DNA of 38,649 nt, filler included, from Desulfobacterales bacterium (lineage in GTDB: Bacteria; Desulfobacterota; Desulfobacteria; Desulfobacterales; UBA2245), in assembly GCA_040771865.1 (NCBI GenBank). It is 4 parts of 4 records of this genome, joined end to end, with 100 filler letters (N's around TTAATTAATTAA, not from the genome) between each part and the next. Parts side by side here need not be neighbours in the genome. Positions count along the whole stretch, not along the records: positions 1 to 14,366 come from JAXGZF010000001.1; 3 more parts are not named here. One strand, written 5' to 3'. Position numbers and translations under genes: made by a program. Positions 1,520 to 19,300 of the stretch are shown piece by piece. Position 1 is the stretch's first letter. Each line of letters starts with the position of its first letter. The notes beneath the pieces are model-generated. The model did not search any database. It was not told the DNA's origin and saw only the letters and a program-made list of their open reading frames with translations.

Positions 1520-1533
1520 ATTCATTTGTAATC

Positions 1534-1582
1534 GTCTCTGCAATGCGACTCTATCGATTGTATCAGTCGCATTGATGCGACT
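1534..1582. promoter_or_regulatory. Paired palindromic enhancer (UAS) sites, consensus GTCGCA-N4-TGCGAC
   Basis: GTCTCT-GCAA-TGCGAC (1534-1549) and perfect A-GTCGCA-TTGA-TGCGAC-T (1565-1582), cores 32 bp apart, about 114 bp upstream of a sigma54 -24 element. The same pair recurs at 9824-9871. Confidence 0.8.
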
Positions 1583-1677
1583 ATAAATGTGAATCTTGAA
1601 GGTTCCCTGCAAAAGTTTCTAGCTTTTAAGTATATGTATTTACTTATCTATTATATATCTGTGTAAATAATCAGGAC

Positions 1678-1694
1678 CTGGCATATATAATGCT
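1678..1694 (+). promoter_or_regulatory. sigma54 (-24/-12) promoter
   Basis: CTGGCATATATAATGCT: GG 1680-81, exactly 10 nt, GC 1692-93. An AT-rich tract (about 1620-1670) lies between it and the UAS. Confidence 0.85.
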
Positions 1695-1708
1695 ACTTGT
1701 TGATGGTG

Positions 1709-2098: not shown

Positions 2099-2126
2099 GG
2101 ATTCATCAACAAAGAAGGAGGTTTAT

Positions 2127-2510: not shown

Positions 2511-2539
2511 TAACCTTCCTTTTTGCAAACAGAAATTCG

Positions 2540-2574
2540 AAAACCGGTCGCCGGAAATCCGGCGGCTGGTTTTT
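2540..2574 (+). terminator. Stem-loop with T tract between DUF5320 and the ORP-like gene (terminator or mRNA-stabilising hairpin)
   Basis: AAAACCGGTCGCCGG-AAAT-CCGGCGGCTGGTTTTT; the stem pairs with G-U wobbles. Confidence 0.55.
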
Positions 2575-2594
2575 GAATCAAGGAGAGAAATTTT

Positions 2595-3062
2595 ATGAAA
2601 ATTGCTGTGACCTCCAACGGTCCCTCGTTGGATGCTGTTGTCGATGCGCGATTCGGACGTTGCGCTTATTTTTTGGTGATTGACCCGGAAACGTTGGAAT
2701 TTGAGGCGATTTCCAACCCCAATATTGCTTTAGGCGGGGGTGCGGGCATCCAGTCCGCGCAACTTCTGGCCAACAAAAGCGTGGAAGTCGTGCTGACCGG
2801 AAACTGCGGCCCTAATGCGTTTCAAACCTTCGGCGCGGCCGGCGTCCGCGTCATCACCGGCGTGAGCGGAACGGTACGGCAGGCGGTTGAATTGTATAAA
2901 ACAGGAAACCTGTCCGGCGCGTCCGAGCCCAACGTCCAAAGTCACTTCGGTACCGGCGCAGGTGCGGGCCGCGGGATGGGTGGCGGCAGAGGCCGTGGAA
3001 TGGGCGGCGGCGGTAGAGGTGGCGGAATGGGCGGTGGCGGCGGAAGGGGCTTCGGCGTTTAA
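2595..3062 (+). CDS. Orange-protein-like NifB/NifX family protein with Gly/Arg-rich tail
   Basis: MKIAVTSNGPSLDAVVDARFGRCAYF, GAGIQSAQ, VLTGNCGPNAF and GTVRQAVE match recalled MTH1175/ORP family motifs. Tail GRGMGGGRGRGMGGGGRGGG; RBS AGGAG. Confidence 0.9.
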   Translation: MKIAVTSNGPSLDAVVDARFGRCAYFLVIDPETLEFEAISNPNIALGGGAGIQSAQLLANKSVEVVLTGNCGPNAFQTFGAAGVRVITGVSGTVRQAVELYKTGNLSGASEPNVQSHFGTGAGAGRGMGGGRGRGMGGGGRGGGMGGGGGRGFGV

Positions 3063-3192
3063 TGCTTGCCTAACTGAATGCTTAAAAAAGATTTGCCCTG
3101 ACACAGCCCCTTTGAAACAAATGTCTCATAAAGCTATTCTGATTCAAAGACGGGCATTTTGAAGAACAATAAAACAAAAAAGGAGAAAGCGT

Positions 3193-4656: not shown

Positions 4657-4720
4657 TAAAGGCTGACGGGTAGATTTCCGGGCGGGAAAATGGTTTTCCA
4701 CCCCCAAAAGGAGATGTGAG

Positions 4721-5251
4721 TTGTCCAAAGGCGCATTCGAGCTCGCAAATAAAATCAGGATTGGGCTGAAGTATTGCGGGGGGTGCAAACCCGAATATGA
4801 CCGGGTGCAGGCGGTGGTGTTGATCAGGGAACGCTTGCAGGAAGAAATCGAACTGGTTTCGCACGAGGAACCGGACACGCATGGAACGCTCGTCGTCGCC
4901 GGCTGTCCGACTGCCTGCGTCGATCTGACGCCGTTTGCCGGGCGTCCGGTCTGGGTGGTGACCAGCCTCTCGGACGTTGAGGAATTTGTCCAAAGGACCA
5001 GATTGTCGCCATCCTGGATAAAATCTTTCTCTCAGGAGGTAGAAATGCGGCCAACATGCAAGGCCAGTGAAATTGAAACAGGTTATCACCCGTCGGGGTT
5101 CAGAATTGATAAGACGGGGGCGCCCTTGGATCGCTATACCCAGTGGGAAATCGACGCAAAAGGCCGCTGGCACAGCGCCAAACCCGTCTGTTTTCACACC
5201 TTGCCTGAACAGGGTTGGATGAAAGACGACCCTGCGGCAGACAAACGTTGA
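4721..5251 (+). CDS. Hypothetical Cys-motif protein (KYCGGC...GCPTAC), possibly two genes in one frame
   Basis: N-part IGLKYCGGCKPEYDR and VVAGCPTACVD. An internal in-frame ATG at 5045 has an AGGAGG RBS at 5034-5039. Confidence 0.65.
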   Translation: MSKGAFELANKIRIGLKYCGGCKPEYDRVQAVVLIRERLQEEIELVSHEEPDTHGTLVVAGCPTACVDLTPFAGRPVWVVTSLSDVEEFVQRTRLSPSWIKSFSQEVEMRPTCKASEIETGYHPSGFRIDKTGAPLDRYTQWEIDAKGRWHSAKPVCFHTLPEQGWMKDDPAADKR

Positions 5252-5365
5252 GGAAATCACCGGTTGGAAAAAAATCTCCATGCCGCCGACGCTTTTCGTA
5301 ATCATCCGGGCGTTTACCCCCGGTGTATGAGCGTCATCCGTAATCATCCACTTTTGGTGTAAATT

Positions 5366-6034
5366 ATGAAAATTCTACTGGCCTATTATTCCCGCACCGA
5401 TTGCACAAAGAAGGTGATGGATAACGTAAAAGACAGGCTGGTCAGACTCGGTCATTCGGTGGAAGTCGAACATTTACAGGTGATGCGGGAATCCTCCTGT
5501 GTCGGTGAAATCTGGAAAGATCTGCACCATTATCCGCTTATTTTTCTAAGTTCATTCAAAGCCTCCTGGCGGAAAAAGTATCTGGCAAGCTATACCCAGA
5601 TCGAAGAGGATATCGCCCCCCTGCGATATCCAGATGTTTCGGCGTTTGACCGCATTTGCATCGGTGGCCCCAAGTGGGCGCAGATTTCGTATCCCGTGGC
5701 GCGATACCTGCGCACGGTTCGGGGCCTGGCGGGAAAGAAAATCGGGTCGGTGGCCACGTTTGGCGGCCCGCCGCTGCCGTTTTTCGAACTGGCCATGATC
5801 GAAAAAGCAATGACCCGGATGGCAAGCGAAAGAGGCGCCTCCATCATCGCCCATCTTGGCCTTTCCAGCGCGTATCATGAGCTGGGAATCATGCCGCTGT
5901 TTCGATGCGCAAGCCGCCTCATTTTACATCAACCTATCGAGTCTTTTATGATCGGATCAGATTACGCAAACCATTTAACGCGGCAATTCTGTGACAAGAT
6001 TGCCGGGACGCAGGAGGAAAATCCATGTTTCTAA
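5366..6034 (+). CDS. Flavodoxin-like fold protein
   Basis: MKILLAYYSRTDCT (variant FMN phosphate loop), FDRICIGGPKW, LAGKKIGSVATFGG. Confidence 0.7.
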   Translation: MKILLAYYSRTDCTKKVMDNVKDRLVRLGHSVEVEHLQVMRESSCVGEIWKDLHHYPLIFLSSFKASWRKKYLASYTQIEEDIAPLRYPDVSAFDRICIGGPKWAQISYPVARYLRTVRGLAGKKIGSVATFGGPPLPFFELAMIEKAMTRMASERGASIIAHLGLSSAYHELGIMPLFRCASRLILHQPIESFMIGSDYANHLTRQFCDKIAGTQEENPCF

Positions 6035-6963
6035 AGTTATGGATGGATCGTCAGCGGGCCGAAAAAGAACGCAACGCCCGGAGTTATTCGCGCATTGAAA
6101 ATCCCGGATCCGTCGCGTCCCTGACGGTTTTGCCGCTGGTCGATTTTAAAAGCACGTTTCCGGAAGCGAAGACGGAACCCGGCGTCTCGTATCTTCTGAC
6201 AGCGGGAAATTTTAAAGTACTGATGGATGTCGGCTACAACGCCAAAGGGGAGCATCCCTCCCCGCTGATCTCTAATATGAAGCTGTTCGGCGTTAACCTG
6301 GCCGACATCAATGCCCTGTTTGTCTCGCACCATCATCTGGATCACTTAGGCGGCAGCAGGGATCAGAGAAATCATACGTTCAGCCTCTCCAACGGCCCCG
6401 TCGATTTTCCTGCCGTACCGGTCTATTCTCCGCTGCCGATTAAACCCTCGCCGATGAACGCCAACCCCGCCTCGGAAATTCGCGTGTCGCTGGATCCGGT
6501 GGAGCTGGCACCCGGGGTGTACGGCATTGGCAGCATTCCCCGCGCCCTGTTTCTGATGGGATATACCGAAGAGCAGGCCCTCGCCGTCCACGTGGCCGGA
6601 AAAGGCCTCGTGTTGATTATCGGGTGTGGACACCAGACCGTGGAGCGTGTCGTTGAACGGGCCAAACAACTTTTTGATTTGCCGATCTACGGCATTATCG
6701 GAGGTCTGCATTTTCCCGTCCACGGCGGACGCATCATGATCGGCCCCATCAACGCCCAGGCCCTTGTCGGCTCGGACCGGATGCCGTGGGACGGCATCAA
6801 TGAAAACGATGTACGGCAGGCCATTCGCGCCATTGCGGAGGCGAAAGTAAAATGCGTATCTCTGTCCGCCCATGACAGCTCCGACTGGGCGATCGACCAG
6901 TTTAAAAAAGCCTTCGGGCCGGCCTATGTGGATTTGTCGGTGGGAACGCCCATCGAAATATAA
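6025..6963 (+). CDS. MBL-fold metallohydrolase (COG1237-like)
   Basis: VLMDVG, SHHHLDHLGG, EQAL, IIGCGH, IIGGLH, SAHDS. Overlaps the upstream gene; RBS AGGAGG. Confidence 0.88.
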   Translation: MFLKLWMDRQRAEKERNARSYSRIENPGSVASLTVLPLVDFKSTFPEAKTEPGVSYLLTAGNFKVLMDVGYNAKGEHPSPLISNMKLFGVNLADINALFVSHHHLDHLGGSRDQRNHTFSLSNGPVDFPAVPVYSPLPIKPSPMNANPASEIRVSLDPVELAPGVYGIGSIPRALFLMGYTEEQALAVHVAGKGLVLIIGCGHQTVERVVERAKQLFDLPIYGIIGGLHFPVHGGRIMIGPINAQALVGSDRMPWDGINENDVRQAIRAIAEAKVKCVSLSAHDSSDWAIDQFKKAFGPAYVDLSVGTPIEI

Positions 6964-7023
6964 ACCATTCACGAAGGGAGGGGCTTTAGATGGAAGAACA
7001 GAAGAGAGAGGGGAGGAGGACAT

Positions 7024-7599
7024 ATGGTTCTGGTAGATAAAAATCAATGCGTCGGTTGCGGAATTTGCGTCTCTGTCTGTCCGGAAGCGATCACATTGAA
7101 AACGGAAAAAGGGTTTGCGGAAATTGTGATGGAAAGGATGGACTGTCTGTGGAAAGTGATGAAGGCCTGCCCTCAAAACGCCATTAAGGAAATCAAAGAC
7201 CGGTTGTTTTTTGCCATCGGGACCGATGATCATCAAACCATTAAATCAAACGATCATGTGGGCAAATCCGCTTATTTTGACATTTTTGAATATTTTGAGG
7301 GGACGTTGGTTTTCCGGGAAACCCGGGAGAATCCCAAATACAGAGAGGATGAGACAAAAGTTCACGGCGACCCCGGCAAAGCGAAAGCGACGGTTTCCGC
7401 CCTGGCGGGCGTGGATGTGCTGGTCGGCCGGCTGATGGGGCCCAATATCGTCCGATTGAAAAATAAATTTGTATGCGCGATTGTCAGAAAAAAGGAAATC
7501 GCCGAAGCAAAGAATGTCATTGTGGAAAATATTTGCGCTATCATCCATGAAAAAAGCAAGAAAGACGGCAAAGACCGAAGGGGCATTATTCTGACCTGA
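7024..7599 (+). CDS. 4Fe-4S ferredoxin domain fused to a NifB/NifX family domain
   Basis: CVGCGICVSVCP (complete motif), degenerate second motif DCLWKVMKACP, then FAIGTDD..DHVGKSAYFDIF..ENP..VDVLVGRLMGP (NifX-like). Confidence 0.8.
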   Translation: MVLVDKNQCVGCGICVSVCPEAITLKTEKGFAEIVMERMDCLWKVMKACPQNAIKEIKDRLFFAIGTDDHQTIKSNDHVGKSAYFDIFEYFEGTLVFRETRENPKYREDETKVHGDPGKAKATVSALAGVDVLVGRLMGPNIVRLKNKFVCAIVRKKEIAEAKNVIVENICAIIHEKSKKDGKDRRGIILT

Positions 7600-7632
7600 C
7601 TAAACGGGCTCTTTGACCGGAAGACATAAGAG

Positions 7633-8778
7633 ATGATCATCAAAATTTTAGGCGCCGAATCTCTGGGGTGTCGCGGACTGTCCTGTCTGGTGGAATTAAA
7701 AAATCGGAAAATCTGCATCGATCCGGGCGTTGCCTTGGGCTGGTCCCGCTATGGTTTTCCGCCGCATCCTTTTCAGGTTGCCGTTGGAGCGGCCATCAGG
7801 GAAAACATCATTGATGCATTAAAAGAGGCGACGGACGTTGTGATCAGCCATTTCGACGGCGACCATTGTCCCCTTTTGAATCCGAATCCCTACCAACTGG
7901 GGATAGCGCAAGTGAAAACAAGTCTGGCGCATTGCCGGATCCGGGCCAAGGGGCCCGACGACTGTCCATCCATCCAGCAGGAACGAAGAAAGGAACTGGC
8001 CTTTGCGCTCGGCAGGGAGCTTTCCCCTCCGGAAGGCGCAAAAGAATTGGGCCTGGAATTTTCTTTGCCGGTTCCCCACGGGGGAAGCGCAAAAACACAA
8101 AACAGCGTGATGATGACCAGAATAGAAGAGGAAGGCGAAACCTTTGTTCATGCCTCGGATATTCAACTGCTCGAGGAAGAGGCCATTGAAAAAATTCTGG
8201 ACTGGAAGCCGGATATCGTTTTAACTTCGGGACCGGCGCTCTATCAGGAAAACGATTTATCCGCAGCGGAACGCACAAAGCGCGCATGGAATAATGCGTT
8301 GATCTTGTCCCGAAACGTTTCTACGCTGCTCATTGATCATCATCTTTTGAGGTCGGCCGACGGGATGATCTGGCTTCATCAATTAAAGCGTGCCGCTCAA
8401 AATGAAATCCTTTGCGCGGCGGAATTTATGAAAAGAGAGCCTCTGCTTTTGGAAGCCTGGCGAAAAGAACTCTATACATGGCTTCCCGCGCCGATCGATT
8501 GGCGAGAAAAGCACAAGACGGGAACAGTTGACGTCCGTGATTATCGCATCAGGGGTTGGGATGTTTTAATCCATCAGGGAAAGATCAGGCCGTGCAAATG
8601 GTACTTTGCCTGCCCCATAAAAGAATATACGGAAAGGGGAAAACTGGAAAGATACTGGATTGAAAATTATTGTCTGGTGAATAACCGGCGTTGCATACGC
8701 TATCAAATGGAAGAAGACCGACAATCTCATCCGGACAACCTGTTGCCCGATGGAAAAATCAGAAAAACGCTAGAGTAA
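7633..8778 (+). CDS. MBL-fold hydrolase (UPF0282/COG2248-like) with C-terminal Cys-rich domain
   Basis: GAESLGCRG, IDPGVALG, FPPHP, SHFDGDH, VPHG, HASDIQ, IDHHLLR. C-terminal CKWYFACP...YC...C..PDNLLPDG. Confidence 0.82.
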   Translation: MIIKILGAESLGCRGLSCLVELKNRKICIDPGVALGWSRYGFPPHPFQVAVGAAIRENIIDALKEATDVVISHFDGDHCPLLNPNPYQLGIAQVKTSLAHCRIRAKGPDDCPSIQQERRKELAFALGRELSPPEGAKELGLEFSLPVPHGGSAKTQNSVMMTRIEEEGETFVHASDIQLLEEEAIEKILDWKPDIVLTSGPALYQENDLSAAERTKRAWNNALILSRNVSTLLIDHHLLRSADGMIWLHQLKRAAQNEILCAAEFMKREPLLLEAWRKELYTWLPAPIDWREKHKTGTVDVRDYRIRGWDVLIHQGKIRPCKWYFACPIKEYTERGKLERYWIENYCLVNNRRCIRYQMEEDRQSHPDNLLPDGKIRKTLE

Positions 8779-8791
8779 AAGAAGGGTTATT

Positions 8792-8980
8792 ATGATTGCG
8801 GAAAATGTAAAATTGACGCTAAACCGCTCATCCAGGAAATTTCAAAACTGCGAAATGTCAGAATCATGGGTCTGATGACGACGGGGCCCGGTTCGGAGAT
8901 CCTGAAGATTCCAGACCTTATTTCAGGGAAACGAAAGAGATATTCGATCAGATTTAAAAGATGAATCTATTTAATGCAGA
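8792..8980 (+). pseudogene. yggS: Decayed YggS/PLPBP (pyridoxal-phosphate homeostasis protein) remnant
   Basis: Manual translation: MIAENVK, deletion/shift, AKPLIQEISKLRNVRIMGLMTTGP, frameshift, RFGDPEDSRPYFRETKEIFDQI, premature TAA. The GLMT..P....PYF pattern is typical of YggS. Confidence 0.7.
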
Positions 8981-8999
8981 TCAGAAAGAGGAGTAAAAG

Positions 9000-9722
9000 A
9001 TGTCCGACACTTTTACATGGATGGCTGTATTCGCCATTTTTTCAGCATTGATCAATGCCGCAGGCATCTTTGCGATTGTCAAATATAAAAAATGGGCGGA
9101 AAAGACCAAGTCCTATTTTATGTGTTTTGCCGCCGGCGTTTTGATTTCAACGCCCTTGATGCTGGCCTTGCCTCAGGCGTTGCAAAAAAACCCTTACGCG
9201 GGATTTATGGCGGCGGGAGGATTTCTGTTCATGGTCTTTTCCAATAAACTCATCAGATACCATGCGCAAAAAGAAAATCTGGCCTTTGGCATTGTAGTTG
9301 CGGAAGGCATTGGGATTCACTCTTTTGTGGACGGCGTGATTTATGCCGTGACGTTCAGCGTCAGCATTCTTACCGGTTTTCTTTCCGCCACGGGCCTGGT
9401 GGTGCATGAATTTGCCGAAGGGGTCATCACCTACCTGGTTTTTATGCAAGCGGAAGTCAAACAAAGAACGGCCATCTTTTATGCGCTTTTGATCGCTTCC
9501 TTCACCACGCCTCTGGGCGCGTTTATCGCGTACCCTTTTATGGATAAGTTATCGTCAAGCGGCTTGGGATTGACGCTGGGATTCATCGCCGGCGTATTAA
9601 TTTATATTTCCGCTTCGCATCTTTTGCCTGAAGCCTTGGGCGACAAAAAGCAACACTCCATCTTTGCCTTTCTGGGCGGTGTCGGATTGGCCGTATTTAT
9701 TGTCTTGTCTAAATTTCTTTAA
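9000..9722 (+). CDS. ZIP (ZupT/GufA) family divalent metal transporter
   Basis: Multiple hydrophobic helices, FAAGVLI, IHSFVDG and VHEFAEG metal-site motifs, LIYISASHLLPE. Confidence 0.9.
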   Translation: MSDTFTWMAVFAIFSALINAAGIFAIVKYKKWAEKTKSYFMCFAAGVLISTPLMLALPQALQKNPYAGFMAAGGFLFMVFSNKLIRYHAQKENLAFGIVVAEGIGIHSFVDGVIYAVTFSVSILTGFLSATGLVVHEFAEGVITYLVFMQAEVKQRTAIFYALLIASFTTPLGAFIAYPFMDKLSSSGLGLTLGFIAGVLIYISASHLLPEALGDKKQHSIFAFLGGVGLAVFIVLSKFL

Positions 9723-9822
9723 AGATCACCTGGCGGGATGCCTGTGCGGGTCGGCGGAAAATCAAAAGGCGGGCATCATGCGCTTCTCCCAAAACAGTGC
9801 GTCTTCGTAAGGGCTCGCATAG

Positions 9823-9873
9823 AGTCGCATCACCAAGACTGTTATTAATAAATTAGTCGCATTTACGCGACTA
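9823..9873. promoter_or_regulatory. Second pair of GTCGCA-N4-TGCGAC-type enhancer sites
   Basis: GTCGCA-TCAC-CAAGAC (9824-9839) and GTCGCA-TTTA-CGCGAC (9856-9871), 32 bp apart, 113 bp upstream of the -24 GG. Confidence 0.8.
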
Positions 9874-9966
9874 TGTGTTGGTATCCGCCTGATTTCCGCA
9901 ATTTTGTTATCAATATATATGTTTGTAATGATTGTTATTATTACTAATTCTGATGATTTTTGCTCT

Positions 9967-9983
9967 CTGGTACATATAATGCA
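9967..9983 (+). promoter_or_regulatory. Second sigma54 (-24/-12) promoter
   Basis: CTGGTACATATAATGCA: GG 9969-70, 10 nt, GC 9981-82. Near-identical to 1678-1694, with an AT-rich tract upstream. Confidence 0.85.
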
Positions 9984-9995
9984 ATCATGTAAAGT

Positions 9996-10137
9996 AGGAA
10001 TGGAAATTTCCGGAAAATTGTCTTGGCGGTGAGGAGCGAAGGAATGGTGTCGGTTGCTAAGGCAAATGCCGTGGGCCTATTTTCCCGATGCCCGGTTGCC
10101 ATGGCGCGGATCGTCGCGTTTTTTCCGCGGCGGCTAA
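9996..10137 (+). pseudogene. Internally deleted remnant of the NifX-like gene at 1709-2098
   Basis: NGNFRKIVLAVRSE parallels NGYRRTIALAVWGD. AGGCAAATGCCG...GATGCCCGGTTGCC is shared with the 3' end of the intact copy. About 250 bp are missing and AGG sits at the start-codon position. Confidence 0.75.
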
Positions 10138-10171
10138 GATTAAAGATACATCAGTAAAAAAGGAGGTTCTT

Positions 10172-10528
10172 ATGCCAAGAGGTGATCAAAAGGGTCCTGC
10201 AGGGTTAGGACCGATGACAGGGAGAGCCGCGGGTTACTGTGCGGGATATACAGTGTCCGGATTTGCCAATCCGGTTTTGGGCCGCGGATACGGCGCGGGA
10301 TTCGGCCGGGGTCTGGGACTGGGATTCCGGGGCGGACGCGGAGGCCGGAGTGGACGCTTCGCGGCGCCTTATGCCGGCTACGGTTATGCCCTGCCGGTTG
10401 CACCTAACTGGGCGCCGTCGACACGCGAGCAGGAAATCGACGCCCTTCGAGGTCAGGCGAAATATTTTGAAGACGCACTGGGCGACATTAAAAAGCGGTT
10501 GGCCGAATTGGAAGCCCCCTTGTTCTAA
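10172..10528 (+). CDS. DUF5320 family protein, copy 2
   Basis: MPRGDQKGPAGLGPMTGRAAGYC, long nucleotide identity to 2127-2510, RBS AGGAGG just before ATG 10172 (the track start 10088 lies in the pseudogene). Confidence 0.88.
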   Translation: MPRGDQKGPAGLGPMTGRAAGYCAGYTVSGFANPVLGRGYGAGFGRGLGLGFRGGRGGRSGRFAAPYAGYGYALPVAPNWAPSTREQEIDALRGQAKYFEDALGDIKKRLAELEAPLF

Positions 10529-10577
10529 CCGGGACGGCAAGAAAGGCCAGGCGCAATAAACAAAGGGGAAACCCATC

Positions 10578-11087
10578 ATGAAGCCCTCCGATGCATCACT
10601 GGATTTGCAAGTTTATCCCGCTGAGGTTTTGAGGAAAATCTGTAAACCGGTGGAACAGTTTGACGCGGAGCTGCGAGAAATGATCAACGCAATGTTTGTC
10701 CTCATGCGCCAATGCGAAGGCATTGGTCTGGCCGCGCCACAGGCGGGACTTGCCAAACAATTTTTTGTCAGCGGCATTAAAAACGAAACGCTCGCGCTTG
10801 TCAATCCGGTCATTCTCGAAACCGGAAAAGAAACGCAAATGGTCGAAGGGTGTCTGAGCCTGCCCGGCATCTGCGTCAACGTCAAAAGAAACGACCGGAT
10901 TTATGTCGCCGGACTGGATGGGCGGGGGAAGAGAATACAATATGGACTCACCGGTCTGTGGGCGCGCGTGGTGCAACATGAAATGGATCATCTCAAAGGC
11001 GTTTTAATCTGCGACCACGGCGAACCGGTAACCGAGGAAACCCCGGAAACAACACGGGAAAACACAAGCGAACGTTATAAGATTTAA
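10578..11087 (+). CDS. def: Peptide deformylase
   Basis: All three PDF motifs are present: GIGLAAPQ, EGCLS, HEMDH. Confidence 0.95.
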   Translation: MKPSDASLDLQVYPAEVLRKICKPVEQFDAELREMINAMFVLMRQCEGIGLAAPQAGLAKQFFVSGIKNETLALVNPVILETGKETQMVEGCLSLPGICVNVKRNDRIYVAGLDGRGKRIQYGLTGLWARVVQHEMDHLKGVLICDHGEPVTEETPETTRENTSERYKI

Positions 11088-11136
11088 AGTTGGAAACGGC
11101 AGGACGCAAAATGCCGATTCCAAAGGGAAAGGATAA

Positions 11137-11622
11137 GTGAAAATGCGGAAAGAAAGATTAATCATTGTAAAAATTGATGAAAGCAAATGCACCGGCTGCG
11201 GGCTGTGTGTCGATGCCTGTCCTGTCGGAGCTATCACCATTGTGGAAACGGCAAAAATTGACGCAGGGCTTTGCACCGCTTGTTGCGCTTGCATAAACGA
11301 ATGCCCAAACGATACCATTTATACCGAACGCAAAGACAAAGCAAACGAGACCACATCTCCTCAGCCTGCGGCATCACGCACCCCCATTACCTCAGCCTCG
11401 ACGTCTCCGCTGCATGCGCCGTTTGCCGCGAGAGTTTCAGCTTTGCAACCGGCGCAAATGGGCGGTCTTTTGGACCGGGCGCTGAATTTTCTCTCCGGCG
11501 CCGCCCCATCGGGTCAAAGCCGGGGCAAGGGCCGGGGCGGAGGACGTGGCGGAGGACGCGGCGGGGGCCGGGGCATGGGCCGGGGTGGGGGACGCGGATA
11601 CGGCAACCGGAGACAGTCCTGA
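11137..11622 (+). CDS. 2x[4Fe-4S] ferredoxin with Pro/Ser/Thr linker and RGG tail
   Basis: CTGCGLCVDACP and CTACCACINECP motifs; tail GRGGGRGGGRGGGRGMGRGGGRGYG. Start uncertain. Confidence 0.85.
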   Translation: MKMRKERLIIVKIDESKCTGCGLCVDACPVGAITIVETAKIDAGLCTACCACINECPNDTIYTERKDKANETTSPQPAASRTPITSASTSPLHAPFAARVSALQPAQMGGLLDRALNFLSGAAPSGQSRGKGRGGGRGGGRGGGRGMGRGGGRGYGNRRQS

Positions 11623-11838
11623 TAAATGCGCAACCAACCGGACTAAAAAGAACCGCTGACATAAAGTTCGGCCGCCCTCCGTCGGGGTACAGTATTGATA
11701 ACGGCCCCGTTCGCGGATATCGCCGCGCCCGGTGGGATGTCGATCCGGACGGCAGGCGACTCCATACCTTCTCGCTACGACGTTGCGGGAGCCTGCTGCT
11801 GGATAAAAAGCCATAAGGCCATAAAGCGCTAATGTCTC

Positions 11839-11867
11839 TTGACGGAGCGATCCGGCGACATTATCTT
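11839..11867 (+). promoter_or_regulatory. Putative sigma70 promoter for the FmdB-type gene
   Basis: TTGACG (11839-44), 17 nt, TATCTT (11862-67), 40 nt upstream of ATG 11907. Confidence 0.45.
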
Positions 11868-11906
11868 TAACCAAAAGAATCAGAGGAATGGAAAGGAAAA
11901 CGTTTT

Positions 11907-12119
11907 ATGCCGTTTTATGAATATCAATGCAAAGATTGCGGCGAACACTTTGAACAGCTGGTATCAATTTCAGAGGCTTCCCGCAAACAGGTATGTCCCC
12001 ATTGCGGCAGCAAAAACACGGCAAAACAACTTTCTGTTTTTGCTGCGAAATCGCCTTCGTCCTCACTGTCCGGACCTTCAAGCGGAAGGGGATTTACGTG
12101 AGGAACCAGCGGTTGCTGA
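11907..12119 (+). CDS. FmdB-family zinc-ribbon protein, candidate selenoprotein (UGA 12099-12101 read as Sec); conventional end 12101
   Basis: MPFYEYQCKDC...CPHCGS...KQLSVF is the FmdB signature. The frame continues GFT-TGA-GTSGC-TGA with a SECIS-like hairpin directly 3' of the first TGA. Family call is strong; the extension is inference. Confidence 0.75.
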
Positions 12120-12145
12120 CCGCGGTCGCGGTCATGATGGGTTCC
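12102..12145 (+). promoter_or_regulatory. Putative bacterial SECIS element
   Basis: Lower stem GGAACC (12102-07)/GGTTCC (12140-45), upper stem TGACCGC (12117-23)/GCGGTCA (12128-34), apical loop GGTC starting 22 nt after the UGA. Confidence 0.65.
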
Positions 12146-12211
12146 CGATGACCCCAAAACCAATCTCGGGATTGTCCAGCGTATCTTTTGTATAAAAACA
12201 GCCGAAATTCC

Positions 12212-12961
12212 CTATTTCAAATTCGCGGGGAAAATTTCCGTGCCAGCCCCGAGAGGGATGAAGCGCTTCGCATATTCACGGGCGAAAAGCTCCCTGGCTC
12301 TTTCGCCGCTGCAATGGGATGCGGCCGCATAGCGGACCCCGAGGGATTTGAACTGCGCGATGATCTTTAGAATTTCTCCCTCGCTGTCGTCGAGCAGATG
12401 AAATCCGCCCATGACAAGCGCAAGATGGTCATTTGGTAAAATCCTTTTTGCGGTCTGAATGATGTGGACGATGCCGGGATGAGCGCAGCCGGTAATCACA
12501 ATGACTCCCGCAGGCGTTCTGAACAACGCCGCCTGCTCCCGCACGGGGCCGTTCAATTCGCCGGTGGTATAAAAGCCCGGGAAAATTTCCTGCGCTCCGT
12601 CAGCTTCCATCACAGGGACGCCGTAGCGTTTCATGTCTGCCTTGAAATGGGCAGAAAAAGAACGGGGCACCAAAACCCGAAGATCGCGGTTGGCGTCCAG
12701 AACCGAATAGATGCCGCCGGTGTGGTCCCAGTGTTGATGTGAAATCATCAATAAATCAATTGCCGCGGGATCTAGACCCAGCCGCGCCATGTTTTTCGAC
12801 AGAACCATGCCGTCGCAGCCGGTGTCGAATAAAATGTTTTTGCCGCCGTGCCGGATAAGACAGGAAAATCCCCAACAGGCTTCCAGATCCTCCGCGGTCT
12901 TGTAGTTGTCGCAGACAACGGTGACGAGCGGACGGACGTCTTCGGGTCGGGAAGGCTTCAT
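12212..12961 (-). CDS. MBL-fold metallohydrolase (COG1237-like)
   Basis: WGFSCLI, ILFDTG, SHQHWDHTGG, ITGCAHPG, MGGFHL, SHCSG. Start at ATG 12961 overlaps the HD gene stop (ATGA); the track extension to 13423 is spurious. Confidence 0.9.
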   Translation of the reverse strand: MKPSRPEDVRPLVTVVCDNYKTAEDLEACWGFSCLIRHGGKNILFDTGCDGMVLSKNMARLGLDPAAIDLLMISHQHWDHTGGIYSVLDANRDLRVLVPRSFSAHFKADMKRYGVPVMEADGAQEIFPGFYTTGELNGPVREQAALFRTPAGVIVITGCAHPGIVHIIQTAKRILPNDHLALVMGGFHLLDDSEGEILKIIAQFKSLGVRYAAASHCSGERARELFAREYAKRFIPLGAGTEIFPANLK

Positions 12962-13755
12962 TGCGCTTCTGTCCTTTCTTCGGAACTTGTCATTTTTGGG
13001 ATGCCGGCAAAAAGCTCCCGGATGAAAGGGGTCTCCGGCAGTTCTTTTTGCAGCCGGCCGATCAGGTCGCGGGAAACCGCGATCTGCCGGGATGAAAAAA
13101 AATTGAAATCGTAAAACCAGAAAGCCAGCATCAGCAGAAAGTCCGCAACCGTTCCCAGATGGCTTGTGGAGATGGACCTGTGTTTTTGAAATTCCTCCAC
13201 GACGGAGGGCGTCAGTTCCCGGCTTAAGCGAATGTGGGGCAGCATGCCGGGGAGGTCGCGAAATCCGTCGCGGGCGACGGATTGCAAAACCAGATCCATG
13301 ATATCCAGTTTGTCCGCGTCCCGAATGATGTTCAGCAACTGCCGGGCATTTTCGGGAAGGTCCGCGGGCAGATCGTCCGTTTTCCGGTTGTGATATTCGA
13401 CGGCGCAGGCAACACGCTCCCACTCATCTTTGTTCATCAGAGACGGCACGCCTTCGGCCTCCAGCGTCTTTCGGCCGGCCAGGCCGTGGTCCAGCGTATC
13501 CGCGTCCCGGAAAGTGCCGAACCAGCTGTATTGCGGAAACCGTCCGATGTCGTGAACCAGTCCGCAGATTTCCGCGAGCTGAATTTCCGACTCGTCGAGC
13601 TTCAGGCCGAGGGCAATAAGGCGTGCGTTCTCCGCGACGCGCCGGCTGTGGCGGTACTTGAGCTCCAGCGCGGCAGGCAGCAAATCCACCGCGTCTCGGT
13701 AGCGCGCCGTGTACCGTTCGAACCATTTGATCAGAAGCCGTTCTTTGGGGGTCAT
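12958..13755 (-). CDS. HD-domain metal-dependent phosphohydrolase
   Basis: KYRHSRRV, GLVHDIGRFPQY, DHG, YHN, IIRDADKLDI; RBS AGGAGA before ATG 13755. Confidence 0.88.
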   Translation of the reverse strand: MTPKERLLIKWFERYTARYRDAVDLLPAALELKYRHSRRVAENARLIALGLKLDESEIQLAEICGLVHDIGRFPQYSWFGTFRDADTLDHGLAGRKTLEAEGVPSLMNKDEWERVACAVEYHNRKTDDLPADLPENARQLLNIIRDADKLDIMDLVLQSVARDGFRDLPGMLPHIRLSRELTPSVVEEFQKHRSISTSHLGTVADFLLMLAFWFYDFNFFSSRQIAVSRDLIGRLQKELPETPFIRELFAGIPKMTSSEERTEAQ

Positions 13756-13786
13756 GTCTCTCCTGTGTGCCGAAAGGAGGAAAGGA

Positions 13787-14230
13787 TCATTTTTTCTTTC
13801 CAACGGCATAGTCCCGCAAAGCTTTGTGAAACGTGTTGGCGGCCAGCAGGGCGCAATGCTCTGAATCTTCGGGCATGCCGCCCAGGTGCTCCAGGATCGA
13901 ACTCTGATTGATTTTCAGGCACTCCCGGACCGTTTTTCCCTTAGCCATGACCGTGGCGGCCGTAGCCGCGGCGTGGGACGTCATGCAGCCGTCCGTCGTA
14001 TAGGAAATATCATCAATTTTATCGTTTCGAATCTTGAGAAACATTTCCATCGTGTCGCCGCAGGGGCCTTTGATTTTGGCGTAGCCGTCCGGTTTGTCGA
14101 GGCTTCCGTAATTGCGGGGGTTGTTTCCGTAATCCACAACCTTTTCGGAAAGACCGCCCGTGATTTTTTCCATGAGCAGGTCGATCATTTCCTGTTTGAT
14201 TTGCTCATCGCTTTTTTGTTCGCCTACCAT
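13787..14230 (-). CDS. IscU/NifU N-terminal-like Fe-S cluster scaffold protein
   Basis: NPRNYG, GPCGDTM, DGC, EHCALLA supply three conserved Cys; RBS AAGGAG. Confidence 0.9.
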   Translation of the reverse strand: MVGEQKSDEQIKQEMIDLLMEKITGGLSEKVVDYGNNPRNYGSLDKPDGYAKIKGPCGDTMEMFLKIRNDKIDDISYTTDGCMTSHAAATAATVMAKGKTVRECLKINQSSILEHLGGMPEDSEHCALLAANTFHKALRDYAVGKKK

Positions 14231-14296
14231 TTTACAACTCCTTCATCATCTTCTTTTCCCGGAGACGGGGCTTTAAATTCTTCCGCCTACCGTTGC

Positions 14297-14365
14297 TTAC
14301 AGTATCTTTTTACCTGCGTCGGGACCGCTTTTGATAAGATAAACATCCGTAATTTTTCCCACGAC
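14297..14365 (-). CDS. C-terminal fragment of a gene cut by the contig end, possibly pyridoxamine 5'-phosphate oxidase-like FMN-binding protein
   Basis: Manual translation VVGKITDVYLIKSGPDAGKKIL-stop. The GPDAGKKI ending resembles that family as recalled; only 22 residues are visible. Confidence 0.4.
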   Translation of the reverse strand, partial: VVGKITDVYLIKSGPDAGKKIL

Positions 14366-14366
14366 G

Positions 14367-14466
14367 NNNNNNNNNNNNNNNNNNNNNNNNNNNNNNNNNN
14401 NNNNNNNNNNTTAATTAATTAANNNNNNNNNNNNNNNNNNNNNNNNNNNNNNNNNNNNNNNNNNNN
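14367..14466. other. Artificial contig-join spacer
   Basis: N44-TTAATTAATTAA-N44 (stops in all six frames). Confidence 0.98.
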
Positions 14467-16241: not shown

Positions 16242-16341
16242 NNNNNNNNNNNNNNNNNNNNNNNNNNNNNNNNNNNNNNNNNNNNTTAATTAATTAANNN
16301 NNNNNNNNNNNNNNNNNNNNNNNNNNNNNNNNNNNNNNNNN
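16242..16341. other. Artificial contig-join spacer
   Basis: N44-TTAATTAATTAA-N44. Confidence 0.98.
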
Positions 16342-16343: not shown

Positions 16344-19300
16344 ATAAGTGGAGTCGTAAATGAGCGTGCGATACACCACTGCCTGGCCCGCGGTTAAGCC
16401 GTGGCTTCCGAGTGTAATCGTATCCGTGTCGCTGTCGATCTTTTGAGAGGGATCGAAGAGGAGGGTGCCGGAAGAAGTTTCAAATCCATGCTGAGCCCCC
16501 GTGGCCGTGCCGTTGTCGATATCGAGGGCATCGCCGCCCGGTGTGGCCGAAAGCTTGATATTATAGGCATCGACCCAAATGACGTAATAGGTGACACCAT
16601 CCTCGAGTCCATCAACCGGGTTATGGGGCTGAGTCATACGGTACGTCCAGTAGGTCCGGTATTCCGTCTCCCTCGTCAGCTCAAAGGAATCGATGAGGTT
16701 CAGAATTTTGTTTTCCGCTGCGGTGCCGGTCAGGCCAAGGTCGTGCCAGACGCCGCTGCGCAGCTCCTCCACCGTCCGCTCATCGACTTCTGCTTTCTGG
16801 TTGACATCGAGGAGCGTACCATTCAGCACGCCGATTCCCACGTCACCGTTCGCCACAACCTGTTTCAAACGCAGATCATCCGTCTGCTCGTCAAAGTAGA
16901 CCGCACCACCGGCTGTGACGGAGACATAATCCTTGAGTTCGGTCCCCGAATCCAGTTGTATCGGGTTAGCGCTGGTTCCGACGGCTCCGGAGGCGTTCAG
17001 GACAACCGTCCCTCCCTTGATCATTCCATCGTAGAAGTCCCCGTTTGAATCTTTTCCTGCCTGAATTGCCCCGGGGACATCCAGGGTCACATCACCTCTC
17101 GAATTTGCGGAAATCTCATCAACGGGAAGCAATCCGACTATTTCAGAGATGTTGATGTCGCCATCGGCTGTGGTCGCTTTGAGGCTGGTGTTATGCGTAA
17201 CAAGTTGCCATGCCGCACTGGTATAATCTTCAGTTCCCAGGTTAAGGCTGGCAGGGGTATTGCTGATATACTCGTAGACAGCACCGGGTGTGCCCTTCGT
17301 GGAGTCATAATTCGAGGCAAGTTTTACACGATCGCCCTTCGCGATAGTTACATTGGCAGGCGGCGTGTAACTTCCGTTCTCGGGCAGCGTGAACGTAGCA
17401 CCCTCCGTGCCGGTACTTCCCGTCGTGTACTGATATACAGGATCATCTGAAACATTAGTTCTGAGCACTTTATCTTCGCCGATGCCGTCCGCGGCTGAGA
17501 GCACGATCCGCTTGCCGTTTACGTAGGCGAGTTCACCGTCCTGTATAATGGATCCGTTGACGGAAGTCAGCGTTGTCGTCCCGGAGGGGTTCAGCACGGG
17601 ACCCTTTACGATAATGTCCTGGTTGGACGTGACGGACAAATTGCCCTCCTTGCCCCCCAGGAAGGTAATGAGCACGGGCTGGTCGGCTTCCACGGAATGG
17701 GTGAAGATGTCCCGAACGCCCGTTTCCGTCTTCCACTTCTGATAATAGGTAGTTTCGCCGTACCAGGTGGTTTCTTTCCATTCGGAGACGAATTGCTTTT
17801 CCGAGGTGCTGAGGACCTTATGATCAGTCGCAGAACTGTAATCGTATCGATACTGGGTGGTATCGCTTGTATCCTTATAGTAATAGGGGCCGCTGTCCAT
17901 GAGGGTCGGCTGCTGCGTTACCTCGCTTTCCGTCCACGCTATGTCATCGGGATCGAGGGCCAGGGCGTCGATCCCCAGCCAGGCGCTCGTCGCATAGATT
18001 TCGTAGAGGCGTGTCGTTGCCTCCACCCCAACGGACCACCCGTAACGCCATCCGGATGTGGTGTAATAGGTGTCCGTGCTTCCGGAGATGTATTGGATAT
18101 CAGCGTCGTTCACCCCGTCGTTGTCGTCAATTGTCCGGACGAATCCATCGCCGGATGCCCGGTAAATGGTTGCTGTAAAGTCGGAGCCGGGGCTGTCTAT
18201 CGCCTTGTCCTTGATGATCAGCGTGCCGGCGCCGCGCTGGGACGCATCGAGCCGGTTCAGAACGATATCATACGGGGTGGTATTCGTGATGTTTATGTTC
18301 GCATACCCGCCGAGAAGCCGTATCTCCCCATAGCCCGTGTTCAGGATATGGCCGGTCAGGTCGATATACCCCCCGCTCACCTTCATCTCTTCCACGATGA
18401 TCTGATCGGTTACCGGGTCGAAGCGGATGATGAAATCCGCATACTTTTCAAGTGAAGGCGAAAGCGTGACCTCGCTTGTTATGGATGGGTCGATAGCGGC
18501 GATTTCCCTGGTTATCGATTCGTCAAGTAACAGATCGTAGTCCGCCCTGCCGCTCTGCATAATTCCGTTGAGGTTGATGTACTCGGCATTGATGAAAATC
18601 TTGTCCGCGTAAATATTCGGTTCGGACTTTTCAGCCGTCAGCAGGTTATGAACCGCTGTAGCGTCTGCGGCGGATACGTACGGGTAGGTCCCGGGCGCAG
18701 CCGTTTCACCATCAGGATAATAAAGTCCTCTGGTGAGTCCGGATAACTGAGAGTAAGGCTCGCCGCCCAGTTCATACTTGGTTACGCCGTCGATATAAAC
18801 GGTCCCGCCGGCTATGACCGTAAGGTTCTTGGCACTGACGGAAGCGGTAATATTGATGTCGCCTTCTCCGGCCGAATAGGCACTCAGAAGTACATTCCCG
18901 CCGAGGTTTTCAATATCGCCGGCAATCGTAATGTCGGGCCAGGGATATTGATAGCCACCGACCGTGACATCAGTTAATGTGTTTTGCACAGTGATGGTCG
19001 GCTCGCTGACCGCAGCCTCCGGTATGGCGGTGAAAACTATATCCGACAGCAGGCCGGTTTCAGAACTATCCCAATGGCTGCATGTTTCCCCTAATGGCGG
19101 CGTCAAGTTGTCCGAATCAATATTCGCCTTAACGATTTCCTGGATTGATGTTTTTCCCTCGACGGGGAGATTGCTGGTCACCTCGGCCCCCTGGAAATAC
19201 AGGCCGCCGTTGTTCTCCGGGATCTCTATCCCAAGTATTTTCAGGAATGCCGGAGTTGCATTGGTGATGGTCACGCCCGCGTCGCTTGGGGCGATGAACT

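What the first reader, a model, noticed from the sequence alone, without database searches (positions are those of the whole stretch)
11907..12145. Hidden selenoprotein candidate: FmdB zinc ribbon with UGA, SECIS-like hairpin and a C-terminal U-GTSG-C motif
Seen: the called stop TGA (12099-12101) is followed in frame by GGA ACC AGC GGT TGC TGA (GTSGC-stop). A two-tier hairpin starts at the first base after the UGA (GGAACC/GGTTCC, then TGACCGC-[GGTC]-GCGGTCA), with a G-initiated small loop 22 nt downstream and no T tract. Known: bacterial SECIS elements lie immediately 3' of the UGA with a G in a small apical loop, and FmdB-family tails often carry Cys-rich motifs that this ORF otherwise lacks. 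Inference: the protein ends ...RGFT-Sec-GTSGC, a terminal UxxxxC redox or metal motif that gene callers miss.
Basis: partly seen in the sequence, partly recalled or inferred. Interest (0 to 1): 0.8.

Follow-up and report, generated by a model that had tools for sequence, protein, structure and literature searches.

The report
Zinc-ribbon protein with selenocysteine tail
A small zinc-ribbon gene that gene callers end at a TGA most likely reads that TGA as selenocysteine and adds a six-residue selenium and sulfur tail, and many relatives in other bacteria show the same signature.

Summary
The FmdB zinc-ribbon ORF (11907-12101) ends at TGA 12099-12101. In frame follow GGA ACC AGC GGT TGC TGA, then a 7-bp hairpin (12117-12134) with a GGUC loop 22 nt after the TGA.

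The Sec reading is well supported by comparison, but no experiment has tested it. In 6 intact relatives (Smithella/Syntrophaceae MAGs, metagenomes) the codon is always TGA. The Gly, Thr and Cys codons after it vary only at third positions, the second stop is always TGA, and the hairpin keeps pairing through a compensatory change. One decayed copy has lost start, frame and hairpin together.

Among 100 unique short FmdB homologs, 67 have TGA, 1-6 codons, then a stop. Across 65 of them the hairpin covaries and its loop G is invariant, the U nearly so. All 27 genomes tested with such genes have SelA or a Sec-type SelD, against 12 of 27 controls. The hairpin apex equals the PrxU SECIS apex of one Smithella MAG that carries the ortholog.

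U65 and C70 align with conserved Cys in Cys-rich FmdB tails. No NCBIfam selenoprotein model matches, and the papers I could read list only an FmdB form with Sec in a CxxU/UxxU motif. The outer hairpin tier is not conserved. Contig C1 may be mis-binned. The tail's function is unknown.

The parts
11839..11867 (+). Promoter-like site (TTGACG, 17 nt, TATCTT), a weak consensus match
   Evidence: 1 site found, against a mean of 0.7 in shuffles, so it is not significant on its own. Listed only as the likeliest start region.
11907..12098 (+). FmdB-family zinc-ribbon coding part, residues 1-64. CxxC motifs at C8/C11 and C30/C33 are followed by a Ser-rich linker ending in G-R-G-F-T.
   Evidence: The AF2 model has residues 1-47 folded (block means 78-88 pLDDT) and 48-64 and 68-70 below 50.
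12099..12101 (+). TGA read as selenocysteine (U65); gene callers take it as the stop
   Evidence: It is TGA in 8 of 8 aligned window-type sequences. Eight database homologs are all cut at the aligned residue. It aligns with an invariant Cys of Cys-type tails.
12102..12116 (+). Translated tail G-T-S-G-C (residues 66-70)
   Evidence: the Gly, Thr and Cys codons vary only at third positions. Codons 3 and 4 vary (S/K/I and G/S).
12117..12119 (+). True stop codon TGA; all three bases are also the first three bases of the hairpin's 5' arm
   Evidence: It is TGA in 8 of 8 sequences, and sequence conservation ends after the hairpin.
12117..12134 (+). SECIS-type hairpin: 7-bp stem and loop GGUC (12124-12127), 22 nt after the Sec codon
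   Evidence: It meets all four published bSECIS constraints. A compensatory C-G to U-A change is seen in L044/L163. Covariation holds across 65 homologs. Its apex is the same as that of the PrxU SECIS in a Smithella MAG.
12102..12145 (+). Outer stem GGAACC/GGTTCC enclosing the hairpin; specific to the window
   Evidence: It folds in the window, but the arms are not conserved in relatives.

Best explanation
The gene at 11907-12119 encodes a 70-residue selenoprotein. It has an FmdB-type zinc ribbon (1-47), a disordered Ser/Gly-rich linker, and a C-terminal U65-G-T-S-G-C70.

Shown or directly supported: the TGA, the five codons after it, the second TGA and a GGUC-loop hairpin are conserved as a unit in relatives, with coding-type and pairing-type substitutions.

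Inferred mechanism: the ribosome pauses with UGA 12099 in its A site. That should melt the competing upstream pairing and leave the hairpin 12117-12134 free. SelB carrying Sec-tRNA(Sec) binds the G-U of the loop 22 nt downstream and delivers Sec. Five more codons are read, the hairpin is unwound, and translation ends at UGA 12117, which lies in the stem. Most of the SECIS therefore sits in the 3' untranslated region. If Sec delivery fails, a tail-less 64-residue product would result.

Inferred function: the flexible U-x4-C end acts as a selenenylsulfide redox arm, or as a soft-metal or metalloid ligand. It would take the place of the Cys-rich C-G-x-G-G-C ends of Cys-type FmdB proteins.
For: (1) Codon and frame. 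In alignment A2 (window plus 7 relatives, of which L044 and L163 are identical) the codon is TGA in 8 of 8. The next five codons are Gly (GGA/GGG/GGC), Thr (ACC/ACG/ACA), S/K/I, G/S and Cys (TGC/TGT), followed by TGA in 8 of 8.

(2) Gene calls. All 8 database homologs end G-[F/C/L]-T at the aligned residue.

(3) Hairpin. It passes the bSECIS constraints quoted: loop of 4 nt, stem of 7 bp, GG first in the loop, spacing 22 nt, -11.2 kcal/mol. GACCGC/GCGGTC becomes GATCGC/GCGATC in L044 and L163.

(4) Wider family. Of 100 unique FmdB homologs of <= 100 aa, 67 have TGA followed by a second in-frame stop 1-6 codons later. Only 3 of 20 that end in TAA or TAG have such a second stop. The 77 longer homologs use 28 TAG, 26 TGA and 23 TAA.

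(5) Covariation. In 65 unique downstream stretches the loop G is invariant and the U nearly so. The five stem pairs are 83.7% paired against 54.6% in shuffles (0 of 500 reach it). The covariation score is 0.703 against 0.202 shuffled and at most 0.262 when slid.

(6) Sec machinery. SelA scores over its cut-off in 25 of 27 genomes carrying such genes, and the other two have SelD with an in-frame TGA. Among control genomes with other FmdB types the figure is 12 of 27.

(7) Positive controls. In G000 only 7 GGTC-loop hairpins have 7 WC pairs. The three closed by C-G are this one plus those 27 and 17 nt after the in-frame TGA of HdrA2 and PrxU. In Smithella MAG G041 (L245, L246), which carries the ortholog, the PrxU SECIS apex CCGC-GGTC-GCGG is identical to the FmdB apex; the same PrxU apex is in L242 of G044.

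(8) Sec/Cys pairing. U65 and C70 fall in invariant Cys columns against tails of the form C-A-C-G-x-G-G-C-G-C-H.

(9) Transcription. RNA-library contigs bridge 11895-12267 with 0 differences.
Against: No experiment shows selenium in the protein.

No Cys-for-Sec ortholog was found within the close clade. The Sec/Cys pairing rests on distant, low-complexity tails that I picked for being Cys-rich, with U entered as C.

The hairpin class occurs by chance after 0.8-4% of TGA triplets. Rfam gave no SECIS match.

One relative, L161, has an in-frame TAA six codons before the TGA, although it also lacks an in-frame start and has a mismatched hairpin.

Contig C1 matches Smithella/Syntrophaceae MAGs at 70-82% but not the same-genus genome G001. 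Another part of the window matches G001 at 85%. The Sec machinery of G000 may therefore belong to a different organism.

Relatives are not independent, and the co-occurrence controls come from different phyla.

The RNA libraries may contain DNA.
Confidence: 0.85

Rival explanations
1. The TGA at 12099 is an ordinary stop. The protein is the 64-residue tail-less zinc ribbon, and the conserved hairpin serves mRNA stability, termination or some other RNA-level role.
For: Gene callers end all nine database proteins there. A hairpin just after a stop is common, and 4.1% of TGA triplets pass the bSECIS constraints. In 5 of 65 family members a T-rich run follows the stem.
Against: No terminator-like site lies in 11600-12400, and RNA-library contigs run on to 12207 and 12267. 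This reading does not explain third-position-only variation in the Gly, Thr and Cys codons after the TGA, or the fixed second stop. It does not explain 67 TGA cases against 3 TAA/TAG cases with a near second stop, or the invariant loop G and nearly invariant U at fixed spacing. It also leaves unexplained the 27 of 27 association with Sec machinery.
Confidence: 0.08
2. The UGA is recoded through the hairpin, but Cys rather than Sec is inserted, wholly or in part. This would use a tRNA(Sec)-like tRNA(Cys) of the selC* kind reported in delta-proteobacteria and in a composite Smithella genome.
For: Passages of PMC5389517 report selC* tRNA(Cys) genes in such lineages, and a second selB downstream of them in Syntrophobacterales and Desulfobacterales.
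Against: ARAGORN finds one tRNA-Sec(UCA) and one ordinary tRNA-Cys(GCA) in G000 and no further UCA tRNA. Only one SelB match passes the cut-off. I did not scan the Smithella MAGs for selC*.
Confidence: 0.04
3. The window copy is a decaying or unexpressed gene, and the features are inherited remnants.
For: One relative, L161, is clearly decayed. The same-genus genome G001 has no close ortholog.
Against: The window copy keeps its start codon, all four ribbon Cys, the TGA, the tail frame, the second stop and a perfect 7-bp hairpin. Contigs from RNA libraries of one study cover it without differences.
Confidence: 0.03

Closest known systems
FmdB-family putative regulatory selenoprotein from the GOS metagenome (Zhang and Gladyshev 2008, PMC2398784; listed in reviews PMC9312934 and PMC13188914)
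   Same: It has the same domain family (TIGR02605/COG2331) and was predicted as a selenoprotein from an in-frame TGA plus a bSECIS.
   Different: The passages I read give a CxxU or UxxU motif, 2 sequences and 807 Cys homologs. That points to Sec inside a CxxC motif; this is my inference, since the figure was not visible. In the window both CxxC motifs are Cys codons and Sec lies six residues from the C-terminus.
[quoted passage not shown]
   Same: These are small proteins whose Sec lies at the extreme C-terminus (U, two residues, stop), often after G-x-G. Many FmdB relatives found here end ...W-G-G-G-U-G-S-stop or ...G-F-S-U-A-G-stop.
   Different: NF041211 is a different N-terminal domain and does not match the window protein or 11 relatives scanned. 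In G000 its best match lies elsewhere, at 21.4 bits against a cut-off of 100. The window tail is U-x4-C-stop, not U-x-x-stop. The original paper is not held, so I could not check whether an FmdB form is mentioned there.
[quoted passage not shown]
   Same: Sec lies next to Cys at the very C-terminus. The review suggests metal binding or unknown substrates for SaoC and the UXX-star family.
   Different: These are unrelated domains with adjacent C-U rather than U-x4-C. No match appeared in the NCBIfam scan.
Mammalian thioredoxin reductase C-terminal G-C-U-G tail (recalled, not from a call)
   Same: A Sec and Cys pair sits on a flexible C-terminal arm, with the SECIS outside the coding region.
   Different: It is a eukaryotic enzyme with a eukaryotic SECIS and a vicinal C-U pair. 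It offers an analogy of mechanism only.
SECIS elements of PrxU (NF040737) and HdrA2 (NF040770) in G000 and in Smithella/Syntrophaceae MAGs
   Same: They have a GGUC loop closed by C-G on a 7-bp stem, 17-27 nt after the Sec codon. The apex CCGC-GGTC-GCGG is identical in PrxU of G041 and G044.
   Different: Those elements lie wholly inside long coding regions. In the window the stem starts at the true stop codon.

Membership tests
Bacterial selenoprotein gene (Sec-UGA plus bSECIS) | An in-frame UGA with a reading frame downstream that is conserved at the protein level | tested here: met
   8 of 8 have TGA. Five codons follow, with only third-position variation in the Gly, Thr and Cys codons, and then TGA in 8 of 8.
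Bacterial selenoprotein gene (Sec-UGA plus bSECIS) | A hairpin meeting the published bSECIS model: loop 3-9 nt, stem 4-16 bp, G in the first two loop positions, 16-37 nt spacing, MFE <= -7.5 (quoted) | tested here: met
   Loop GGUC, 7 bp, spacing 22 nt, -11.2 kcal/mol. Covariation across 65 homologs.
Bacterial selenoprotein gene (Sec-UGA plus bSECIS) | selA, selB, selC and selD in the same genome | tested here: inconclusive
   All four are in assembly G000. However, contig C1 may not belong to that organism. The four MAGs with the syntenic ortholog have SelA, Sec-type SelD and PrxU; selB and selC were not searched there.
Bacterial selenoprotein gene (Sec-UGA plus bSECIS) | Homologs with Cys at the Sec position | tested here: inconclusive
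   U65 and C70 fall in invariant Cys columns against 8 Cys-type tails and one further Sec-type tail. The tails are short and low in complexity, I chose them for their Cys, and no Cys form exists in the close clade.
Bacterial selenoprotein gene (Sec-UGA plus bSECIS) | Selenium shown in the protein | not testable with these tools
   This needs 75Se labelling or mass spectrometry.
FmdB family zinc ribbon (TIGR02605 / PF09723) | Profile score over the curated cut-off, and two CxxC motifs from the initiator Met | tested here: met
   67.4 bits against 31.3 and 64.7 against 34.4. C8, C11, C30 and C33 are present.
GOS-type FmdB selenoprotein (CxxU/UxxU) | Sec within a CxxC-type motif | tested here: not met
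   All four ribbon positions are TGC or TGT. Sec is at residue 65 in a U-x4-C tail.
[quoted passage not shown] | A match to the family profile | tested here: not met
   No hit at E <= 1 for the window protein or at E <= 10 for 4 relatives. The best match in G000 is elsewhere, at 21.4 bits against 100.
[quoted passage not shown] | Sec followed by exactly two residues and a stop | tested here: not met
   The window has five residues after Sec. Many FmdB relatives do have two.
Intrinsic transcription terminator | A GC-rich hairpin followed by a T tract | tested here: not met
   0 sites in 11600-12400. 5 of 65 family hairpins are followed by a T-rich run.

The most novel reading that the evidence does not exclude
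The window is one member of a large family, spread over several phyla and so far uncatalogued, of FmdB zinc-ribbon selenoproteins whose only Sec sits at the extreme C-terminus. The tails include ...G-F-S-U-A-G, ...W-G-G-G-U-G-S and, in Smithella/Syntrophaceae, ...G-F-T-U-G-T-S-G-C. The SECIS lies largely or wholly in the 3' untranslated region. Standard annotation cuts all of them at the Sec codon. If this holds, dozens of 50%-identity clusters of 'FmdB family' proteins in public databases are mis-called, and the long-unexplained Cys-rich FmdB tails gain a Sec counterpart that marks them as a reactive site.
Probability: 0.5. Interest if true: 0.75.

Novelty: new variant of a known kind. Interest (0 to 1): 0.66.

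Why it matters
Annotation pipelines stop selenoprotein genes at the TGA, so reactive C-terminal residues go unseen. The missed tail here is the only candidate reactive site outside the zinc ribbon of a protein family whose function has never been established.

A Sec residue marks a position where chemistry happens. That turns 'FmdB, putative regulator' into a testable hypothesis of a redox or metal-handling arm. The family would also supply natural bacterial cases in which the SECIS works from behind the stop codon, which is useful for understanding SelB geometry.

The signature is frequent. 63 of 143 short representatives among the best 150 hits in a library of 1.84 billion proteins end in the truncated pattern. 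Any correction would therefore affect many records. The host lineage consists of syntrophic bacteria of anaerobic digesters, as shown by the Smithella record titles and the run labels.

Tried and rejected
Rfam. An E-value search of 11900-12300 gave only two chance snoRNA matches with E > 2 and no SECIS family. I do not know whether Rfam holds a model that would fit this bacterial type.

NCBIfam. The window protein and 11 relatives, read with TGA=U, matched only TIGR02605 and generic zinc-ribbon models. No selenoprotein model matched.

Outer stem. GGAACC/GGTTCC is not conserved in relatives, so I dropped it as part of the element.

Alternative hairpin. My simple hairpin picker preferred GCGGTTGC-TGACC-GCGGTCGC in 4 window-type sequences. 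That pairing is broken in L160 and L044 and shows no covariation, so I rejected it as the conserved element.

Same-genus genome G001. It has no close ortholog and no DNA match to 10578-13000. This led to the mis-binning question rather than to a test of the codon.

Co-occurrence within the window's order. All 41 genomes have SelD or SelA, so this sample cannot discriminate.

RNA-library contigs. Parts of 11100-12900 without cover in X5, X13 and X19 are no evidence of anything. Run shares under 0.2 were not used.

Papers. Haft and Tolstoy 2025 and Haft and Gwadz 2023 are not held. The BSepDB main text has no 'FmdB' or 'ribbon'. Its one stored supplement was cut when stored, and the stored part has none either.

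Structure. The AF2 model was used only to separate the folded part from the disordered part. No fold search was run.

Full report
THE OBSERVATION

An ORF starts at ATG 11907 and ends at TGA 12099-12101 (64 aa). In frame follow GGA ACC AGC GGT TGC and a second TGA at 12117-12119.

The inner hairpin is TGACCGC, loop GGTC (12124-12127), GCGGTCA, and spans 12117-12134. The outer arms GGAACC (12102-12107) and GGTTCC (12140-12145) enclose it. The loop starts 22 nt after the TGA.

The protein is an FmdB-family zinc ribbon. TIGR02605 scores 67.4 bits against a cut-off of 31.3 and PF09723 scores 64.7 against 34.4.

Folded alone, the inner hairpin gives -11.2 kcal/mol with z -3.37. The whole 65-nt stretch is not unusual, with z -1.24. 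The hairpin meets the four constraints of the published bacterial SECIS model, which I read in section 5 of PMC13188914. So do 277 of 6730 TGA triplets (4.1%) on three contigs of the assembly, and 56 (0.83%) do so at dG <= -11. The hairpin alone would not carry the claim.

CLOSE RELATIVES

A word-indexed search of 5.8 billion proteins found 9 proteins. One is the window's own and eight are homologs of 67-83% identity to the window protein. All eight end G-[F/C/L]-T at the residue aligned with T64.

DNA for this clade came from metagenome contigs (L043, L044, L045, L047). It also came from genome contigs whose record titles name Smithella sp. and Syntrophaceae MAGs (L160-L163). L043 and L160 print the same protein and downstream 48-50 nt. 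L044 and L163 have identical rows in A2 although their proteins differ slightly. Counting the window, seven distinct sequences remain.

In alignment A2 (8 rows) the pattern is:
- The Sec-position codon is TGA in 8 of 8.
- The next codon is GGA, GGG or GGC (Gly).
- Then ACC, ACG or ACA (Thr).
- Then AGC, AGT, AAG or ATT (S/K/I).
- Then GGT, AGT or GGG (G/S).
- Then TGC or TGT (Cys).
- Then TGA in 8 of 8.

Third positions vary in all five codons. First or second positions vary only in the two middle codons. This is the pattern of a translated frame.

The hairpin that follows is conserved. In L044 and L163, GACCGC/GCGGTC becomes GATCGC/GCGATC, a change on both sides that keeps the pair. Beyond the hairpin the alignment falls apart.

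One row, L161, has TAA six codons before the TGA. It also has no in-frame start codon at the usual place, and its hairpin has mismatches and folds no better than shuffles (z +0.20). I read it as a decayed copy, not as a counter-example.

THE WIDER FAMILY

Among 40 genomes of the same order, the best 29 foreign loci included 14 FmdB genes that end ...C-x(6-9)-G-(F-S)-TGA, then one or two codons, then a stop. The other 15 ended in 7 TGA, 5 TAA and 3 TAG, with no such second stop.

I pooled all loci: 182 tblastn rows, 177 unique. There were 100 homologs of <= 100 aa. Of these, 67 have TGA followed by a second in-frame stop 1-6 codons later, against 3 of the 20 that end in TAA or TAG. The 77 longer homologs use 28 TAG, 26 TGA and 23 TAA.

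Typical ends are ...G-F-S-U-A-G...W-G-G-G-U-G-S...S-G-G-T-U-G-P-C-G-C-H (L167) and ...P-S-G-U-G-V-R-G-R-G (L168). Record titles place them in Anaerolineae, Nitrospirota, Planctomycetota and others.

An ungapped-style MAFFT alignment of 65 unique stretches of 46 nt, each starting at the TGA, has as invariant columns only T, G and A of the codon and the G of the loop. The next T is nearly invariant. RNAalifold places five pairs around that loop, and each has compensatory changes.

Counted with controls:
- 83.7% of cells pair, against 54.6% in shuffles (0 of 500 shuffles reach it).
- The covariation score is 0.703, against 0.202 shuffled and at most 0.262 when the partner is slid.

The sequences are related, so these figures overstate independence.

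The spacing found by my simple picker is 15-25 nt. [quoted passage not shown] No terminator-like site lies in 11600-12400.

SEC MACHINERY AND POSITIVE CONTROLS

Assembly G000 has the full machinery:
- SelA.
- SelB at 362.6 bits against a cut-off of 242.25.
- SelD with an in-frame TGA.
- One tRNA-Sec(UCA).

Contig C1, which is window 1-14366, matches Smithella/Syntrophaceae MAGs G041-G044 in several syntenic pieces at 70-82%. It barely matches the same-genus genome G001. Window 17000-31000 matches G001 at 85% and none of those MAGs at E <= 1e-50. C1 is therefore probably mis-binned, or an island.

For that reason I checked the four MAGs directly. All have SelA, SelD with an in-frame TGA and PrxU with an in-frame TGA.

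Of 27 genomes that carry a TGA-tail FmdB gene, 25 have SelA over its cut-off. The other two have SelD with an in-frame TGA. Of 27 genomes whose matching FmdB gene is of another type, 12 have SelA over the cut-off, one of them through a 26.8-bit partial match. The control genomes are mostly from other phyla, and the completeness of all these MAGs is unknown.

Within G000 there are 43 hairpins with a GGTC loop and at least 5 Watson-Crick pairs, and 7 of them have 7 pairs. Three of those 7 are closed by C-G. One is the window's hairpin. The other two lie 27 and 17 nt after in-frame TGA codons of proteins that score as HdrA2 (NF040770, 1194.7 bits against 1100) and PrxU (NF040737, 394.1 against 270). 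Both are listed selenoprotein families.

In Smithella MAG G041 (L245, L246), which carries the ortholog L160, the PrxU element reads CTCCGC-GGTC-GCGGAG. Its apex equals that of the FmdB hairpin. L242 of G044 has the same PrxU apex.

SEC/CYS PAIRING AND STRUCTURE

A full HMMER scan of 1.84 billion representatives gave 4085 hits at E <= 0.001. Among the 143 listed hits of <= 130 aa:
- 63 end in [F/G][S/T/G/R/K] with a Cys 3-14 residues earlier, which is the truncated pattern.
- 7 end in a Cys-rich ...C-x-C...H tail.

I aligned the window type, L167 and 8 Cys-type proteins. U65 (entered as C) and C70 fall in the only invariant columns of the tail, so that U-G-T-S-G-C lies over C-G-x-G-G-C. I chose those rows for their Cys-rich tails, and the region is short. 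This is supportive but not decisive.

An AlphaFold2 model built from that alignment has residues 1-47 folded. Residues 48-64 and 68-70 are below pLDDT 50. This fits a flexible arm.

EXPRESSION

Contigs from two RNA libraries of one study lie on the locus with no differences:
- X13 covers 11895-12092 and 12078-12267.
- X5 covers 11982-12207.

They bridge the TGA, the tail, the second stop and the hairpin. A contig from a second study, X19, covers 12083-12135 with 4 differences. By eye, its flanks equal the L162 ortholog in A2. DNA carried in these libraries cannot be excluded.

WHAT IS KNOWN

An FmdB-family selenoprotein was predicted from GOS reads, with a CxxU motif, 2 sequences and 807 Cys homologs. 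I read passages of PMC2398784. Two reviews list it as U/CxxU or UxxU without an accession; I read passages of PMC9312934 and PMC13188914.

The 2026 review also lists C-terminal Sec families on other scaffolds: UXX-star family 2, a HUGP/GUXX-star fusion, KCU-star and SaoC. NF041211 is named gluta_UXX_star_2 and does not match these proteins.

Three full-text searches found no description of a C-terminal Sec on an FmdB zinc ribbon: 'FmdB' with 'selenoprotein', 'selenoprotein' with 'zinc ribbon', and the four-term search. The two Haft papers are not held, and the BSepDB supplement was cut when stored. Prior description therefore cannot be ruled out.

VERDICT

The Sec reading is the best explanation, at about 0.85. 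The main rival is an ordinary stop with a conserved 3' hairpin. It fails to explain the coding-type substitutions after the TGA, the fixed second stop, the exclusive use of TGA and the link to Sec machinery.

The mechanism of insertion is inferred from the known bacterial system. The function of the tail, a redox arm or a soft-metal ligand, is a guess guided by the Cys-type relatives. I rate this a new variant of a known kind.

Noticed in passing
window 1-14366 (contig C1) versus window 17000-31000: C1 matches Smithella/Syntrophaceae MAGs in syntenic pieces at 70-82% but hardly matches the same-genus genome G001. The later part of the window matches G001 at 85% and none of those MAGs. C1 looks mis-binned or like an island. 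The window itself is several contigs joined by N runs (14367-14410, 14423-14466, 16242-16285, 16298-16341, 37063-37106, 37119-37162).
   Followed up: partly
G000:C3:564034-566562 (L240) and G000:C12:57515-58306 (L241): HdrA2 has an in-frame TGA in a D-C-S-I-U motif, and PrxU has an in-frame TGA in a T-F-V-U motif. Each has a 7-bp GGUC-loop hairpin, 27 and 17 nt downstream respectively.
   Followed up: yes
L161:1490-1740: The Smithella MAG copy of the gene is decayed. It has no in-frame start at the usual place, TAA six codons before the TGA, and two mismatches in the hairpin.
   Followed up: yes
L165, L177, L167, L168 and about 60 further loci: FmdB genes of Anaerolineae, Nitrospirota, Planctomycetota and others end ...G-F-S-TGA-A-G-stop...W-G-G-G-TGA-G-S-stop or carry longer tails. 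Each is followed by a covarying hairpin, with loops mostly CGUGN or GGUC.
   Followed up: partly
window 12110-12134: Three segments (GCGGTT, GACCGC, GCGGTC) allow two exclusive hairpins. The upstream pairing is the minimum-energy fold in L162 but is broken in L160 and L044. A ribosome sitting on the TGA would cover the upstream arm and leave the SECIS-type pairing free (inference).
   Followed up: partly
window 10088-10528 and 11137-11622: The neighbours are a DUF5320 protein and a 4Fe-4S ferredoxin that ends in a long Gly-Arg repeat tail. The order DUF5320, deformylase, ferredoxin, FmdB, then convergent MBL-fold, HD-domain and NifU-like genes is partly kept in the Smithella/Syntrophaceae loci.
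   Followed up: partly
L018 and L032, downstream of the FmdB gene: In two relatives the TGA-tail FmdB gene lies just upstream of an ORF that starts with a twin-arginine-like signal and a Cys-rich Fe-S motif (seen in the read-through print).
   Followed up: no
P0012 (3179 aa) and P0013 (2434 aa): Two giant proteins top the representative search. P0012 has 37 separate stretches matching the zinc-ribbon query.
   Followed up: no
G044:C22 and G042:C30: In two MAGs the PrxU selenoprotein gene lies on the same contig as the FmdB ortholog. The distance is about 3.5 kb in G044.
   Followed up: no
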